This document shows positions 45,001 to 51,000 of a DNA stretch of 64,000 bases, piece by piece (the first letter of the stretch is position 1; each line of letters opens with the position of its first letter). This DNA is from Escherichia coli (GTDB lineage Bacteria > Pseudomonadota > Gammaproteobacteria > Enterobacterales > Enterobacteriaceae): assembly GCF_013315695.1 (NCBI RefSeq), contig NZ_CP054353.1; one strand, written 5' to 3'. Position numbers: made by a program.

Positions 45001-48000
45001 GCAGCATGCATCCACCCAGCCCGACAGCAGTGAACGGCTCAGCTCCACACCTTGCCGGCCGTATATTTCTGACTGGCGATACAGCGGGGTGTGCTCTGCA
45101 TACTTCGAGGTCAGCACGCGGGCCAGCAGCCCCGGTCCGGCGATACCCCGCTCGATGGGCCGTGAAGGCGCGGGGGCCTGCACGATGGCATCGCACTGAG
45201 TACAGGCATGCTTTTCACGTACAGTCCGGATAACCCGGAAGGCGCTGCGCATCAGCTCCAGCTGTTCGGCGGCATCCTCACCCAGATAGCTCAGCGAGCC
45301 TCCACATTCCGGGCAGCATGACGCTGCCGGCAGCAGCCGTTTTTCATCGCGGGGGAGTGATTCGGGGAACGGTTTGCGGGTGCGGGTTTGACGCAGCGGG
45401 CGCTGCACGGCCGGGTCGTCAACCCGACCGGTAAGGGTATCACTTTCTTTCTGAAGTGCCTTCAGGTCAGCTTCCATCTGTGCGATACGACGGGAGACTT
45501 TTTCGGAGCAGCTGCCGACGTTCATCAGGCGCAGCTTATCCAGCTGTGCCTGCAGATGGTCTATTTCGCGTTCACGCTCGTTCAGCTTTTCCAGCAGGGC
45601 ACGGTTCAGCGCCTCCTGTTCGGCAAGGAGACGTTTCAGTGCATTGATATCGTCAGGAAGTGAGCTGCTCATACCGGGTATATTACCAGGCTCATTCAGC
45701 GTCGACCAGGATAAAGAGGCTTACAACATAGTCAGGGACGTAAGCAGTCTTTTAGGCTGCCGCCAGTCGATACCTTCCAGCAGCATCGCCAGCTGTGCCG
45801 GTGTGAGGAACACTTTGCCATCCCGGGCTGACGGCCAGGCGAAGCGGCCGCGCTCCAGCCGTTTGGTCAGCAGACACAGTCCATCGCCGGTAGACCAGAG
45901 GAGCTTTACCTGACTGCCATTACGCCCACGGAAGATAAAAACGTGACCTGACATCGGATCGTCTTTCAGCGTCGTCTGCACCTTTGCCGCCAGGCCGTTG
46001 AAGCCGTTTCTCATATCGGTGATGCCAGCGACCAGCCAGATCTTTGTCCCTGATGGTAATGGGATCAACGTTTGAGCTCCCGTATCAGCAGGTTCAGGAT
46101 ATTTTCGCTGATGGCACCATTCAGACGGAGTGATCCGTGCCGGAACGTCACTTCACAGCTGATATTGAGTGATTCAGGTGTCGCAGCAGCTACAGGTTGT
46201 GACCGGGGGGAGGTTGTAGGGACAACATCTTCGGCATCAAGTGTTATCGGGAGCAGCTCAGGCACGTTGTTTTCTGTTGTTGAAGGAGGACGTAGTTTTC
46301 CTTCGCGCCAGTACTGGCGCCACTTGAACAGCAAATTATCGTTGATCCCATGCTCACGAGCGAGTTGCGCTACGGAGATCTCTGGTCGATGCGAGAGTTC
46401 AACCATTTTGATTTTGAACTCAACGGGATAATTAGGGCTTTTTTTACGCACTGCGGTTAATGATTTCATGGATAGCGTCCACCATATTTGGTGTCCACTA
46501 TTCTCTCAGGAATTTCAGGATCTGCCAGACGGTGCTGAGACGACGCTTACTGATAAATACGGAGAGGACTCTCGCGTGTGGTTGGTTGACACCACAGTGC
46601 GGATTCGGCGAATCCGCGATCACGGTGCGATTTCGTCCCACAGTACACAATCAATACCCCGGGTTTTATTCAGGTAAGCAGGACTGCGGATATCCGGTGT
46701 CGCGCCGTTGTGTCACGAACGGGGCAGGTGCGAAACACCGGATAAAATGCAGGTTGCGATACCTCTGAACGCCCTGCGCAGAGCGGCGATTTTGGATTAA
46801 GTACTCGCACCTCCGCAGTCCTCAAACAAGTCTGGCTGGTAGCTGTAAACAGACTTCGTACATACCGCTCTGCAATAAATCCCCGTAGCACAGGCCTCAC
46901 AGAACTTCTTCCCATGAAAAAACTGCTCACACATCACACAATGCCACTCCAGCACGACCGGTAATGGTGATAAAAACATCGCCATATCCTCAATGTAAGG
47001 GTGGGACTTTTCCGGATTCAGCACCACACAGTCCGCCTTCTGTTGCTCGCTCAGGGCATGTAAATCGTGCTCAAACCATGCCCCCTGAGCATCTGTCTGC
47101 AGAATCAACCGGCCATGACAGGAAAGGCAGAAACAATGCCGGATATTTCTGCTGAGCGCAGAGTCGGCACTGATAATGTGCTCACCCGGCGTGATCCCCA
47201 GCCCCGTTTTTATACCGTTCATTCTGCTACCCCCTCCTCACTGAAGCGCCCGGTCTGGCAGTGTGTGCAGTACCGCTCCCCATAATAATCGTGGTGACAT
47301 TGTCTGCAGTGCCAGCTGGCTTTACGCACCACGGGTAAGGCATCCGGGACGAATTGCTGCAGACGTTTAATCAACCGTATTTCTCTGCGTTCCGGCCTGA
47401 CATAAGGACATTGCTGCGCGTGCTCCGTCAGCCCGTCGTCAGTGTGTTCAAACCAGGGCCGTTCGGTGTCGTATTGCGGGTGGTATCTGAGTGCACTGCC
47501 GCAAAGGTGGCAGGTGTAGTGGGCATAAGGAGCAGTCTGTGCGGTACGGGCACCGGTCAGACGTCCGTTGCCATCAAGTGCGAGAAAAGATTTTGCGTAC
47601 ATAGTATATGTTCCTCTGCGCCAGACGACACGCAGGCAACAGCCGTCCCGGTACGGGCAGCGTGGTCAGGTGTGAATGGCGGTTTTCAGTTCAGTCTCAG
47701 AAGGGAAAATCAGTGTGGTCGCTGTGAACACGTCATCACACTAAGGTCAGATAAGTCGTCTGTCGGGCTCAGCCACGACTGCAGCCAAAGTTGCGCTCAC
47801 CGGTGCCGTAAGCTTTGGTACTCTCCTTCGCCAGATAGTCAGCACGCTCCAGCACCTGCTGAAAGCCGGTGTCATCATCGCGTTCCAGCCACACCGCCGG
47901 CCTGACCGGAAAATGTGCCAGCGTGTCATAACGTCCGGCATCCACTCCCAGGGCACTGCACCACGCCTGTTTAATCATCCCGGCCAGTGATCCCGGAGCG

Positions 48001-51000
48001 CGGTAATCGCCGGCACGACACCAGGTATCCCGGTTGACCAGCAGCATCAGGTGATAGTGTTTTTTACCTTTGCACTCCCCAAACTCCCGGGCCCAGACGT
48101 AATGCAGGGTTGTGGGATGCACGCGTTTACCTTCCCGATGCTTACGTTTCTGGTAAGCGTCGATTCGGGCTTTCAGGGCATTGATGAAGCGGGATATCAC
48201 AGCTGCGTCCGTTGCTGCCGGTACATCCGGGAAACGCAGGTCAACCCGCAATGCCGTCAGGCGGGGATGAACATTCAGTGCGTGCCGCACCGTCTCACGA
48301 ATACGTTGCTGCCAGAAGGGGTTGTATTTGTAGGTCATGGTTAAATCTCCGTATGGTTCATACGGAATAACCACGTCGTAAAAAATGCGCAAAGCCCCTG
48401 AGGTGACCTCCGGCAGGACACTGTCTCAGGCACTCTGTGATAACCCGAACGGTCATCGCCGGACTGACGATTGAATTCCCGGCGTTGTTTTTTTAATGTA
48501 AAAAACAGGTTACGGATAAGGCGTGGAGAGGGAGCGATCGTGATACGCAAAAAGAAGTGCAGGGACTGTGGTAACGCAATTACTCATAATACAGTATGTT
48601 GCCCGTATTGTGGCGCTGTCGACCCCTTCGGTTATTACCGGAAGACCGATCGTCTGCTCTGTTTACTGACGTTACTGCTGGTGCTGATTCTGGTTACCGT
48701 TTCAGGCGTCAGTGTATTTGTACTGTTGCAGTAGGTTACAGGGGAGGGATTATCAGGAATCGGCGGGGCAGAGCGACCCGCTGCGTTTGTTGTGCCAGAC
48801 AGTAACGCACCGGCTCCCTGCAAAATGGTACCTGAATCAATCACAGTCAGGTATTCCGCCAATCCGTGATCGAATCGAGCGGAATACTCAGCCCCGACAA
48901 ATACGAGTCCCCTTCAGAAGATACAGGCCGGTAATGCCTGAACGCCTGCCCCTCTGTACACCATTCCCTTTTGATTTCGAATTCTTTGTTGCCGTTATAC
49001 TGCTTAATGTTCCCGATCTTCCGGTGCACAGATAACACCGGAGTCATCGTAGCGCGGATTCAAGATTCAGGTGACATATTTCCAGACGGAAGCCGGCACG
49101 CGATCGTAAAGTTTGTTCATTGTCAGTTCTGCCAGCCGGTGATCGACCGCAGAGTTAAAGGCTTCCAGCTCCGCAGGGGTAAGTTTATAACGTGTGTGGG
49201 AAATCACTTTTTCCAGCGTCTCCCGGGATGAACAACGACGGAACTGCTCTGGTTTTAACTTCCATTCGTCTCTCGTTACTTTATGCTGTAATCAACGTGA
49301 TACTGCCAGCATACCGCACCAGACTGACATTCTGGTACCCTCCCCAAACTCATTACTCCCGTGCCACCACTTAACCGGTCTCTCAGCAATATCGCCTTAA
49401 CGCTACGTTTAGTTATCCGACACCGGATGTCCGATGCCATTGCGACAACCTGAAGGTAACCAGCCAGTTAGCTGAGATGTTAAGCTGCTGGCTGCATACA
49501 CCTTGCCAAATCTAATCGCTGTTATCTTAACCAATTTCCAGGATACAAGGGGGCGATTACTGAGAATGCTCTCAGACTGTCACTCACCAGATCGGATACG
49601 TTTACCGCTCAGGCGGATGCTTAATGCACTCTGTTCAGGTGCATTGCAGGTACGTTTTATGTACGCAGGTTATACGCCAGTTATCAGGGATAACCCTGTG
49701 AGTACAACGCAATCTGTTGCTACTGGGTAGACTGGTCTGCTGATCACACTCACAGATTTATTTCACATATATGAACTCATGTGTTTGAGCTCTCTTATAT
49801 ATTTATAATACCAATCAGACAGTCTTATCCCACCAGTGATACCTGTCGCCTGCCCACAGGTCACGGGCTGATGCACCACAACCGCCTTCAAAAACAACTC
49901 TGCAATTATCAGAACGCCAGTTTTCCCCTTGTCTCACGAAAGTCCTCCCTCCTTTATCACGTGCGCGTGCGGAAGCATCGTTTCGCAACAATCACCCGAC
50001 ATACCGGTACGGCTCAGCCACCGCAATCCCCCCGTTTATCTCCTGACGGTCACATTCCCGATTATTTTTTACGTTTTTCCCCGGTTGTTATGCCGGGGAA
50101 GGTGGTGCGTTGTTTTCATCACCAACGCCGGTTGAGATTAACAACATCCGGAGGAACATTTTCATGAATACCCCAGTTTCACTGATGGATGACCAGATGG
50201 TCGACATGTCGTTTATCACTCAACTGACCGGCCTGACCGATAAATGGTTTTACAAGCTCATCAAGGATGGTGCCTTTCCTGCCCCCATCAAACTGGGCCG
50301 TAGCTCCCGATGGCTGAAAAGTGAAGTGGAAGCCTGGTTGCAGGCACGTATTACACAGTCCCGTCCGTAATTCCTGACCGTTATCCGTTCAACCGCAGCA
50401 AAGGCATGATCCGGCCCCCGGAGGCATTTTGCTGCGCGCTAAAGGAGAGAATATTATGCAAAAACTTGAAAACCGGTGTGAGCTGCTGCTCATCCAGCAT
50501 CAGAAATGGATGACAAACGTGACGAGGCTTATCGTCGCTCATGGAATGGGGGCTCCGCATCTTCATGGTTATCACCGCCTGACCCTGGCCCACTTTTTTC
50601 TGCCAGAAAAAGGCACCATCATCTCAGTGGCACCACAGGGACTCTATCAGGTCGTCAACCCGGGAACACCACCGTTCATTCCTGCCATTCAGGAAGGGTT
50701 AATGACCAGCATTCAGACCCATGAAATCATGCTGCTTACACATTTTAATCTGGGCGGCGTTTTACTCAGTGAGCTACATCGTCTGGGTGAAAACCGGCTG
50801 GCAAACAGGCTGAACAGCCTGCTCCGGCGTTTCGACGATCGTGATCTCTACCACACGCTGATATGGCTGTGCTGGTATGATCTGATGTGTGCCCACTCCA
50901 TGCAGCCCTGGACTGAAGAGTTAAAGCATAAATCACATGCAGAGCTTGAAAACTGGGCTGTGGCGCGCAAACGGGAAAAGCGCGAGCTGGAACTGATGAT

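What the first reader, a model, noticed from the sequence alone, without database searches (positions are those of the whole stretch)
46797..48392. Paralogous pair of Cys-rich zinc-ribbon-like genes next to a YfjJ-family gene
Two overlapping (ATGA) genes encode 127- and 141-aa proteins with paired CxxC motifs and a shared WFEH motif, evidently tandem paralogues, immediately downstream of a YfjJ (inovirus Gp2-like) gene and just after the IS66 insertion. I cannot place them in a named family. A duplicated, coupled, metal-binding pair in a prophage-remnant context could be a regulatory or anti-defence module.
Basis: inference. Interest (0 to 1): 0.45.

Follow-up and report, generated by a model that had tools for sequence, protein, structure and literature searches.

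The report
Zinc-finger gene pair, island Rep-like cassette
The two overlapping Cys-rich genes are real, selected genes from a catalogued family of unknown function; they are a fixed part of a small cassette, built around rolling-circle-type nuclease genes, that sits in the genomic islands of most E. coli genomes and of other enterobacteria.

Summary
On the minus strand, ZnA (47219..47602, 127 aa) and ZnB (46797..47222, 141 aa) overlap by ATGA. They are diverged paralogues (29% identity, E=3e-13) lying downstream of a YfjJ/"inovirus Gp2" gene.

They do belong to named families. Both are Pfam DUF7828 + Zn_ribbon_11, which PGAP calls "putative zinc ribbon protein", and identical proteins occur in thousands of E. 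coli assemblies. I found no functional study.

New here:
- Two metal sites are conserved across both paralogue classes, CCHC and C4.
- The N-domain is homologous to the N-terminal zinc finger of the CoiA nuclease (hhalign 95%).
- dN/dS is 0.06-0.22.
- The pair is one part of a recurrent cassette: YfjJ with HUH and Tyr motifs intact, AlpA, ZnA, ZnB, a YfjJ paralogue lacking both motifs, then DUF2913.
- The cassette occurs in tRNA-type islands across Enterobacterales and on Klebsiella megaplasmids. It is absent from 50,697 phage genomes.
- In the window, ISEc22 splits the cassette.
- About 80 nt upstream of ZnA are as conserved as the coding sequence.

Best guess (about 0.33): ZnA/ZnB is a zinc-finger DNA- or partner-binding accessory of the island's YfjJ module. 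No evidence supports defence or anti-defence. The family is ordinary and catalogued; its function is open.

The parts
47219..47602 (-). ZnA, 127 aa. It has an N-terminal DUF7828 domain (CCHC site: C31, C34, H53, C65; WFEH motif), a linker helix, and a C-terminal Zn_ribbon_11 domain (C99, C102, C112, C115).
   Evidence: ORF. Pfam DUF7828 E=4.2e-31 and Zn_ribbon_11 E=5.5e-9. Invariant residues. dN/dS 0.06-0.21.
46797..47222 (-). ZnB, 141 aa, a diverged paralogue of ZnA with the same two-domain, two-site layout. This copy is the E. coli-specific 'MNGIKTGL' allele.
   Evidence: ORF. Pfam DUF7828 E=2.8e-22 and Zn_ribbon_11 E=1.3e-14. 29% identity to ZnA, E=3e-13. dN/dS 0.13-0.22. Homologues almost all from E. 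coli.
47219..47222 (-). ATGA overlap of the ZnA stop and the ZnB start, suggesting translational coupling.
   Evidence: Sequence. In other genera the two genes overlap by 13 nt.
47603..47685 (-). Conserved non-coding leader directly upstream of ZnA. The core is CTGCCCGTACCGGGACGGCTGTTGCCTGCGTGTCGTCTGGCG followed by the SD sequence.
   Evidence: Nearly identical among E. coli alleles whose ZnA genes differ at dS 0.27-0.51. Recognisable across genera. Column identity 0.56-0.70 over -80..-1, against 0.3-0.4 further upstream. No consensus RNA structure; fold z-score -0.04. Single copy in the window. No Rfam match.
47769..48338 (-). YfjJ1, a YagK/YfjJ ('inovirus Gp2 family') protein of 189 aa with intact HUH (H94-Y-H96) and Y168-L-A-K171 motifs.
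   Evidence: Pfam YagK_YfjJ_C E=2e-48; REP_ORF2-G2P E=1.7e-5, below Pfam's cut-off. Motifs invariant across the family.
44097..46548 (-). ISEc22 (IS66 family: tnpA, tnpB, tnpC), inserted in the spacer between ZnB and the downstream YfjJ genes. It splits the cassette.
   Evidence: Annotation of the identical stretch in L001. Boundaries come from comparison with the uninterrupted allele L033, which shows a junction overlap of about 10 nt.
43891..44088 (-). 65-aa ORF. It is the C-terminal remnant of a further YfjJ1-type gene and keeps the DYLTK motif.
   Evidence: Pfam YagK_YfjJ_C E=9.4e-10, matching profile positions 119-167 of 170. Present in the same place in the uninterrupted E. coli allele.
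43297..43863 (-). YfjJ2, a 188-aa YfjJ paralogue that lacks both HUH histidines and the aligned catalytic Tyr.
   Evidence: Pfam YagK_YfjJ_C E=1.1e-9. In alignment A10 it shows PYL in place of HYH and Q in place of Y. A gene of this kind follows ZnB in most other genera.
50164..50370 (+). AlpA-family HTH gene of the island. Here it is divergent and about 1.8 kb from YfjJ1. In most other genera it lies on the same strand, directly upstream of ZnA or of YfjJ1.
   Evidence: Annotation. phmmer and Pfam Phage_AlpA hits.

Best explanation
SHOWN.
- ZnA and ZnB are small two-domain zinc-finger proteins. Each has an N-terminal CCHC finger homologous to the N-terminal finger of the CoiA nuclease, a linker helix, and a C4 zinc ribbon.
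- They arose by tandem duplication, are translationally coupled and are under purifying selection.
- They are core genes of a conserved island cassette: YfjJ1 (HUH + Tyr intact) / AlpA / ZnA / ZnB / YfjJ2 (motifs lost) / DUF2913.

INFERRED mechanism.
- ZnA and ZnB, probably as a heterodimer, are the nucleic-acid- or partner-recognition subunits of the island's YfjJ-type module. That module resembles a rolling-circle (HUH) nuclease.
- CoiA carries the same kind of finger in cis, N-terminal to its nuclease domain. Here the finger proteins would act in trans.
- They would bind a specific DNA site or DNA structure on the island and position or regulate YfjJ1, with the inactive YfjJ2 as a structural partner.
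- This would serve nicking and replication or mobilisation of the island, under AlpA control.
- The conserved ~80-nt sequence in front of ZnA is a candidate binding or control site.
- In this window ISEc22 has cut the cassette between ZnB and YfjJ2, so the module may be only partly functional here.
For: - Family and motifs: Pfam hits. CCHC and C4 residues are invariant across both paralogue classes.
- CoiA link: hhalign of the DUF7828 domain against CoiA_N gives probability 95.2%, E=2.7e-8 over 51 columns, with CxxC and (W/H)F(E/A)H in register. There is also a weak direct CoiA_N hit in one family member, E=0.011.
- CoiA itself is a PD-(D/E)XK nuclease needed to resolve transformation D-loops, with a putative zinc finger on its N-terminal side (bioRxiv 10.1101/2024.02.06.579203).
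- Linkage: in every locus with enough upstream sequence, apart from one decayed E. coli B remnant, ZnA follows a YfjJ-family gene. ZnB follows in most loci, then YfjJ2 and DUF2913, across about 15 genera and on Klebsiella IncFIB/HI1B plasmids.
- YfjJ1 keeps invariant HUH and YxxK motifs. YfjJ2 has lost both.
- One natural fusion has a ZnB-type module N-terminal to a YfjJ-like domain, downstream of alpA and YfjJ.
- Selection: dN/dS is 0.06-0.22 for the Zn genes, lower than about 0.35 for the flanking YfjJ genes.
- AF2: the N-domains of both proteins reach pLDDT 75-86 in a fused ZnA-linker-ZnB model, against 51-74 for ZnA alone.
- Island context: AlpA, a P4-type backbone (GTPase, DUF932, antirestriction, RadC), then cargo. 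Gp2-like genes have been listed as likely core genes of a class of alpA/integrase islands (bioRxiv 10.1101/2024.08.29.610337).
Against: - There is no experimental datum on any cassette protein. Literature searches found nothing on function.
- The proteins are near-neutral (pI mostly 6.5-8), not the basic charge typical of non-specific DNA binders.
- Fold searches found no DNA-binding homologue, only generic rubredoxin-like ribbons, with nothing significant.
- The AF2 comparison is uncontrolled: the two runs used different alignments, no PAE or coordinates were available, and the fused model has pTM 0.35.
- The fusion protein is a singleton from one short metagenomic contig and could be an assembly or frameshift artefact.
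- The YfjJ nuclease activity is itself only inferred from motifs, and the REP_ORF2-G2P hit is below Pfam's cut-off.
- ZnB is missing in some loci (L017, L023-L025), so a strict heterodimer is not universal.
- No repeats or hairpins typical of a rolling-circle origin were found near the genes.
Confidence: 0.33

Rival explanations
1. ZnA/ZnB are transcription factors of the island, for example small zinc-finger activators or repressors in the manner of P2 Ogr and P4 Delta. They would act with or downstream of AlpA on island promoters. The conserved leader would be their own, or AlpA's, operator.
For: alpA lies directly upstream on the same strand in most genera. A strongly conserved, unstructured ~80-nt sequence sits in front of ZnA. 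The proteins are small duplicated zinc-binding proteins in a P4-integrase-type element. P4 Delta is a tandem duplication of an Ogr-like zinc finger (my own knowledge, not tested here).
Against: Pfam showed no hit to Ogr_Delta or to any transcription-factor family at E<=1. The Cys spacing differs from Ogr. The tight and near-universal linkage is to YfjJ genes, not to alpA: in E. coli alpA is divergent and 1.8-2.6 kb away while the leader stays with ZnA. No sigma-70-like promoter was found in the leader.
Confidence: 0.2
2. The cassette, or the pair, is an unrecognised defence or anti-defence (counter-defence) system carried by the island.
For: Islands of this kind are rich in defence and antirestriction genes: KlcA/ArdB-like antirestriction, RadC, and type I RM as neighbouring cargo. 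In CP4-57 the genes after yfjJ are the AbpAB defence system (my own knowledge; PMC10732053 was listed but not read). Nuclease-like proteins paired with zinc-finger proteins are common in defence systems.
Against: No PADLOC hit for any of the cassette proteins. The cassette is syntenic core, not variable cargo. It is absent from phage genomes, which argues against a phage-type anti-defence gene. Nothing resembles a toxin or effector beyond the YfjJ domain.
Confidence: 0.1
3. The pair is a decaying leftover with no current function in this island, being selfish-element debris interrupted by IS66.
For: The cassette in the window is split by ISEc22. The surrounding island is heavily IS-ridden and full of pseudogenes. 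Many database copies are truncated or frameshifted. An isolated pair survives without YfjJ in E. coli B.
Against: Both ORFs are intact. dN/dS is 0.06-0.22 between alleles with dS up to 0.5. All metal ligands are conserved. Exact copies occur on hundreds to thousands of contigs.
Confidence: 0.07

Closest known systems
Pfam DUF7828 (PF25165) + Zn_ribbon_11 (PF11682, formerly DUF3279); RefSeq 'putative zinc ribbon protein'
   Same: ZnA and ZnB are full-length members with the same two-domain architecture. Identical sequences are already deposited many times.
   Different: Nothing differs. This is the family they belong to. It has no assigned function and I found no paper on it.
N-terminal zinc finger of competence protein CoiA (Pfam CoiA_N, PF25164)
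   Same: Profile-profile homology at 95%. Shared pattern: an N-terminal strand (F-x-A-x-d-x-x-G), CxxC, (W/H)F(E/A)H, then a later Cys. In CoiA the finger sits N-terminal to a DNA nuclease domain.
   Different: ZnA/ZnB have no PD-(D/E)XK nuclease domain and no CoiA C-terminal domain. They carry a C4 zinc ribbon instead. They are island genes of Enterobacterales, not competence genes of Firmicutes.
HUH rolling-circle initiators with accessory factors (inovirus gpII, plasmid and phage Rep proteins, relaxases). IS91 and Helitron enzymes carry zinc-binding domains in cis.
   Same: The adjacent YfjJ1 has the motif order of HUH endonucleases, with an RVDL-like motif, HUH and YxxK, and belongs to the family once named Inovirus_Gp2. 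Zinc-binding DNA-recognition modules attached to HUH enzymes are known (my own knowledge).
   Different: Here the zinc modules are separate proteins, duplicated, and accompanied by a motif-less YfjJ paralogue. No origin, nick site or activity is known. No inovirus structural genes are present.
P2 Ogr / P4 Delta zinc-finger late-gene activators
   Same: Small Cys4 zinc-binding proteins of P4-integrase-type elements. Delta is a tandem duplicate (my own knowledge).
   Different: No sequence or profile similarity was detected. The Cys spacing differs, and Ogr/Delta have no CoiA_N-like domain.

Membership tests
Pfam DUF7828 (PF25165) | Profile HMM score above the curated gathering cut-off (25.7 bits) | tested here: met
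   ZnA 106.9 bits, ZnB 78.6 bits.
Pfam Zn_ribbon_11 (PF11682) | Profile HMM score above the gathering cut-off (24 bits); two CxxC pairs | tested here: met
   ZnA 36 bits, ZnB 54 bits. C99, C102, C112 and C115 are invariant.
CoiA family (competence nuclease) | N-terminal CoiA_N zinc-finger domain | tested here: met
   hhalign probability 95.2%, E=2.7e-8 against an alignment of three Bacillus CoiA N-termini. There was no direct Pfam CoiA_N hit for ZnA or ZnB themselves, so the homology is remote.
CoiA family (competence nuclease) | Central PD-(D/E)XK nuclease domain (PF06054) | tested here: not met
   The proteins are 127 and 141 aa and end after the zinc ribbon. No PF06054 hit. They are therefore not CoiA family members; only the finger is shared.
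HUH endonuclease superfamily (applies to the neighbour YfjJ1, not to ZnA/ZnB) | HUH metal-binding motif and a catalytic Tyr (YxxK) in the right order | tested here: met
   H94, H96, Y168 and K171 are invariant in alignment A4 and in A10. YfjJ2 fails this test.
HUH endonuclease superfamily (YfjJ1) | HUH fold and DNA nicking with a covalent 5'-phosphotyrosine intermediate | not testable with these tools
The PDB sequence search found nothing. The Pfam REP_ORF2-G2P hit scores 25.4 bits, below the 27.8 cut-off.
Ogr/Delta zinc-finger activators | Match to Pfam Ogr_Delta; C-x2-C-x22-C-x4-C spacing | tested here: not met
   Not among the Pfam hits at E<=1. The spacing here is C-x2-C-x9-C-x2-C.
Known anti-phage defence systems (PADLOC-DB v2) | Any component model hit | tested here: not met
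   No hits for ZnA, ZnB, YfjJ1, YfjJ2, DUF2913 or the Y5-type YfjJ.
Phage-encoded proteins (PHROGs / INPHARED) | Homologue in phage genomes | tested here: not met
   No significant PHROG hit for ZnA or ZnB. tblastn against 50,697 phage records gave no match. Only 4 loci in IMG/VR.

The most novel reading that the evidence does not exclude
The six-gene cassette is YfjJ1 (HUH), AlpA, ZnA, ZnB, motif-less YfjJ2 and DUF2913, together with the conserved leader. It could be the so-far unidentified replication or mobilisation engine of the very common non-conjugative tRNA-associated islands of Enterobacterales (CP4-44/CP4-57-like backbones, UPEC pathogenicity islands). In that reading a heterodimer of CoiA-type zinc fingers would target an HUH nuclease to the island.
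Probability: 0.2. Interest if true: 0.65.

Novelty: already known. Interest (0 to 1): 0.3.

Why it matters
DNA similar to the pair is present in about 71% of complete E. coli genomes, often in several copies. It sits in the conserved backbone of pathogenicity islands whose means of replication and horizontal spread is poorly understood. If the cassette proves to be the islands' nicking or replication module, it would give a concrete handle on how such islands move: targets for deletion, a candidate cis site, and a candidate nuclease. As it stands, the finding is an ordinary, already catalogued pair of domain-of-unknown-function genes. The value added here is the cassette context, the CoiA-finger homology, the active/inactive YfjJ pairing and the conserved leader. 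None of these turned up in the literature I searched.

Tried and rejected
- **Sequence search of PDB chains.** Nothing meaningful for the Zn family (best E=0.061, methane monooxygenase, spurious) or for YfjJ.
- **Fused ZnA-linker-ZnB model.** Foldseek against PDB and BFVD gave nothing at E<=0.001, only rubredoxin-like ribbons. AFDB was not available.
- **NCBIfam, PHROGs, PADLOC.** No family for ZnA or ZnB.
- **Profile search of 1.84 billion representatives.** Only 322 hits, nearly all about 130 aa with the same architecture. No informative distant fusion apart from one singleton. Hits beyond the best 150 were not visible.
- **Leader as a structured RNA.** Rejected: no Rfam match, RNAalifold -1.5 kcal/mol, fold z-score -0.04.
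- **Leader as an N-terminal coding extension.** Rejected: the window has no in-frame start, and the frame differs by 1 nt between alleles.
- **Repeats or hairpins as a rolling-circle origin around the genes.** Only short matches at chance level.
- **Promoter scan.** No sigma-70-like site in the leader.
- **The 65-aa and 188-aa YfjJ ORFs as one gene with an in-frame stop.** Rejected: the 65-aa piece aligns to the C-terminus of a YfjJ1-type protein, and the 188-aa ORF is a complete YfjJ2.
- **K-12 MG1655 CP4-44 region.** No copy is annotated there.
- **Charge analysis.** Uninformative.

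
Full report
**1. Observation.**
The minus strand of the window carries two ORFs, ZnA (47219..47602, 127 aa) and ZnB (46797..47222, 141 aa). The + strand reads tcat at 47219-47222. The ZnA stop and the ZnB start therefore overlap as ATGA, and each start has a Shine-Dalgarno-like sequence in front of it.

BLASTP of one protein against the other gives 29% identity over 118 residues, E=3e-13. Both have CxxC ... WFEH ... C in the N-terminal half and CxxC ... CxxC in the C-terminal half.

The gene upstream (47769..48338) is a YagK/YfjJ protein, E=2e-48. An IS66-family element lies just beyond the ZnB stop.

**2. Family placement.**
Both proteins are full-length members of Pfam DUF7828 (PF25165) plus Zn_ribbon_11 (PF11682), well above the curated cut-offs. 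The 2-kb stretch is 98-100% identical to many complete E. coli chromosomes, where PGAP annotates 'inovirus Gp2 family protein | putative zinc ribbon protein (x2)'. Both exact protein sequences are already in public collections, ZnB on at least 1000 contigs and ZnA on 348.

DNA similar to the pair occurs in 3854 of 5426 complete E. coli genomes. The median is 2 places per genome and the maximum is 7.

NCBIfam, PHROGs and PADLOC have no model for them. Full-text searches for DUF3279, DUF7828, Zn_ribbon_11 and 'putative zinc ribbon protein' returned no functional study. The family is named but uncharacterised.

**3. Are they real, functional genes?**
Four E. coli alleles were compared, with dS up to 0.5. 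dN/dS is 0.06-0.21 for ZnA and 0.13-0.22 for ZnB. This is lower than the roughly 0.35 of the two flanking YfjJ genes.

In 34 ZnA orthologues from several genera, C31, H53, C65, C99, C102, C112 and C115 are invariant and C34 nearly so. In a joint alignment of both paralogue classes, the invariant residues are C34, F51, H53, C65, C99, C102, G108, C112 and C115, and C31 is nearly invariant. This defines two metal sites: CCHC in the N-domain and C4 in the ribbon.

**4. What the domains resemble.**
The N-terminal pattern recalled the N-terminus of the competence protein CoiA, so I tested it. Real CoiA N-termini carrying Pfam CoiA_N were retrieved. A profile-profile comparison with the DUF7828 domain gave probability 95.2%, E=2.7e-8 over 51 columns, with the N-terminal strand, CxxC and (W/H)F(E/A)H in register. 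One family member also has a weak direct CoiA_N hit, E=0.011.

CoiA is a PD-(D/E)XK nuclease required to resolve transformation D-loops. It has a small putative zinc finger on its N-terminal side (bioRxiv 10.1101/2024.02.06.579203; earlier prediction in PMC1189080). ZnA and ZnB have the finger but no nuclease domain.

**5. The wider unit.**
A scan of one genome per species returned 28 loci, all plausibly Enterobacterales: Salmonella, Hafnia, Mixta, Serratia, Yersinia, Trabulsiella, Citrobacter, Budvicia, Yokenella and others. A few records are titled as other taxa (MAGs named Collinsella, Bacillota and Clostridiales, and an isolate named Chryseobacterium). Their sequences are 48-91% identical to the enterobacterial ones, so I suspect mislabelling.

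Searching their ORFs with the window proteins shows a recurrent, same-strand order:

- a YfjJ-family gene, of type Y1 or a second type I call Y5;
- alpA, either before or after that YfjJ gene;
- ZnA;
- ZnB, overlapping ZnA by 13 nt;
- a divergent YfjJ paralogue (Y2), as little as 5 nt after ZnB;
- DUF2913.

The same six genes, so annotated by PGAP, sit on Klebsiella IncFIB/IncHI1B megaplasmids.

A YfjJ gene precedes ZnA in every locus with enough upstream sequence. The one exception is a decayed remnant in E. coli B. ZnB is absent in a minority of loci (L017, L023-L025).

On the other side of the cassette lies the usual island backbone: YeeP-like GTPase, WYL regulator, DUF932, antirestriction and RadC. 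Beyond DUF2913 comes variable cargo such as type I RM and two-partner secretion genes.

The family is small. Only 322 cluster representatives among 1.84 billion reach E<=1e-3. It is absent from 50,697 phage genomes and nearly absent from IMG/VR, with 4 loci.

**6. The cassette in this window.**
An uninterrupted E. coli allele (strain EH53, L033) reads: YfjJ1, ZnA, ZnB, a 65-aa C-terminal remnant of another YfjJ1-type gene, then YfjJ2 of 188 aa. Aligning it to the window places ISEc22 at about 44097-46548, with a junction overlap of about 10 nt. That is inside the 248-nt spacer between ZnB and the remnant.

The remnant (43891..44088) and YfjJ2 (43297..43863) are therefore part of the same unit. 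In E. coli the alpA gene (50164..50370) is divergent and about 1.8 kb away, with an hha pseudogene in between.

**7. Active and inactive YfjJ.**
In Y1- and Y5-type proteins, an RVDL-like motif, H-x-H and Y-x-x-K are invariant. This is the motif order of HUH rolling-circle endonucleases. It fits the family's former Pfam name, Inovirus_Gp2 (recalled from memory), and a sub-threshold REP_ORF2-G2P hit.

All Y2-type proteins, including the window's, have lost both histidines and the aligned tyrosine.

**8. Hints of physical coupling.**
A fused ZnA-linker-ZnB model built from 13 paired rows gave pLDDT 75-86 for both N-domains, against 51-74 for ZnA alone. The alignments differ, no PAE or coordinates were available, and pTM was 0.35. 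This is suggestive only.

One 454-aa protein joins a ZnB-type module to a YfjJ-like domain, downstream of alpA and a YfjJ gene. It is a singleton from one 4.8-kb contig.

**9. A conserved leader.**
The roughly 80 nt before the ZnA start are almost identical among E. coli alleles whose coding regions have diverged, even where the upstream gene differs. The sequence is recognisable across genera. Column identity over -80..-1 is 0.56-0.70, equal to that of the coding region, and it falls to 0.3-0.4 further upstream.

The leader is not coding in the window. It has no consensus RNA structure, no unusual stability, no Rfam match and no sigma-70-like promoter. It occurs once in the window. A protein-binding or control site is the simplest reading, but that is untested.

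**10. Interpretation.**
- *Shown:* the identity, architecture, metal ligands, selection, cassette membership and IS disruption.
- *Inferred:* function. The best-supported idea is that ZnA/ZnB supply in trans the kind of zinc-finger recognition module that CoiA carries in cis on a nuclease. They would serve the YfjJ (HUH-like) pair in island nicking, replication or mobilisation under AlpA control (confidence about 0.33).
- *Rivals:* island transcription factors (0.2), an unrecognised defence or anti-defence system (0.1), and decaying debris (0.07).
- *Against any strong claim:* there are no experiments, the proteins have neutral charge, there is no structural homologue, and YfjJ activity is itself only inferred from motifs.

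**11. Verdict.**
It is partly wrong, because the family is named and there is no support for anti-defence.

The genes are ordinary, abundantly deposited members of a domain-of-unknown-function family. Interest is modest (0.3). It is raised somewhat by how common the cassette is in E. coli islands and by the testable hypothesis it offers.

Noticed in passing
window 47603-47685 (minus strand): The ~80 nt upstream of ZnA are as conserved across genera as the coding sequence, with core GGGACGGCT..CCTGCGTGTCGTCTGGCGG. The stretch is not coding here, has no RNA structure signal, has no Rfam family and occurs once in the window. It may be an operator, an AlpA site or a nuclease site.
   Followed up: partly
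window 48537-48734 (+ strand): A small ORF lies divergent from YfjJ1 and is annotated 'hypothetical protein' in matching genomes. It encodes a CxxC...CxxC zinc-ribbon followed by a hydrophobic, probably transmembrane, tail. It is also present upstream of YfjJ1 in other E. coli alleles (L032, L033). It gives only weak generic zinc-ribbon Pfam hits.
   Followed up: partly
window 43297-43863 and 43891-44088 (minus strand): The two 'YagK/YfjJ domain' ORFs next to the IS66 are not one broken gene. One is a C-terminal remnant of a YfjJ1-type gene. The other is a complete YfjJ paralogue that has lost the HUH and Tyr motifs.
   Followed up: yes
window 14576-14728 (minus strand) and about 14222-14432: A further fragment of a Y5-type YfjJ gene (phmmer E=4.7e-14) lies beside a fragment that the matching genome annotates as 'TOTE conflict system archaeo-eukaryotic primase domain' protein. 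It looks like the remnant of a second island backbone inside the mosaic island.
   Followed up: no
window 51150-52658 (minus strand), compared with L001 24715-26818: The best-matching genome (NZ_OZ547117.1) has an IS1A inside the YfjI-family gene. The window does not appear to carry it, and shows YfjI-like ORFs of 292 and 191 aa instead. The window is therefore not from that exact assembly, although 46600-48600 is 100% identical to it.
   Followed up: no
proteins P0167, P0171, P0178-P0180, P0187, P0193: E. coli carries two very different ZnB alleles ('MNGIKTGL...' and 'MRILNCYMAND...'). Several deposited proteins are chimeras of the two, which suggests recombination between island copies within genomes.
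   Followed up: no
database names seen: Some UniRef and NCBI records name these 127-141-aa proteins 'DNA-directed RNA polymerase, beta subunit/140 kD subunit'. This is evidently a propagated misannotation.
   Followed up: no
L004, L005, L023, L030: Records titled Collinsella, Bacillota, Chryseobacterium and Clostridiales carry enterobacterial-type copies of the cassette, 48-91% identical to ZnA. Contamination or mis-binning of the assemblies is the likely cause.
   Followed up: no
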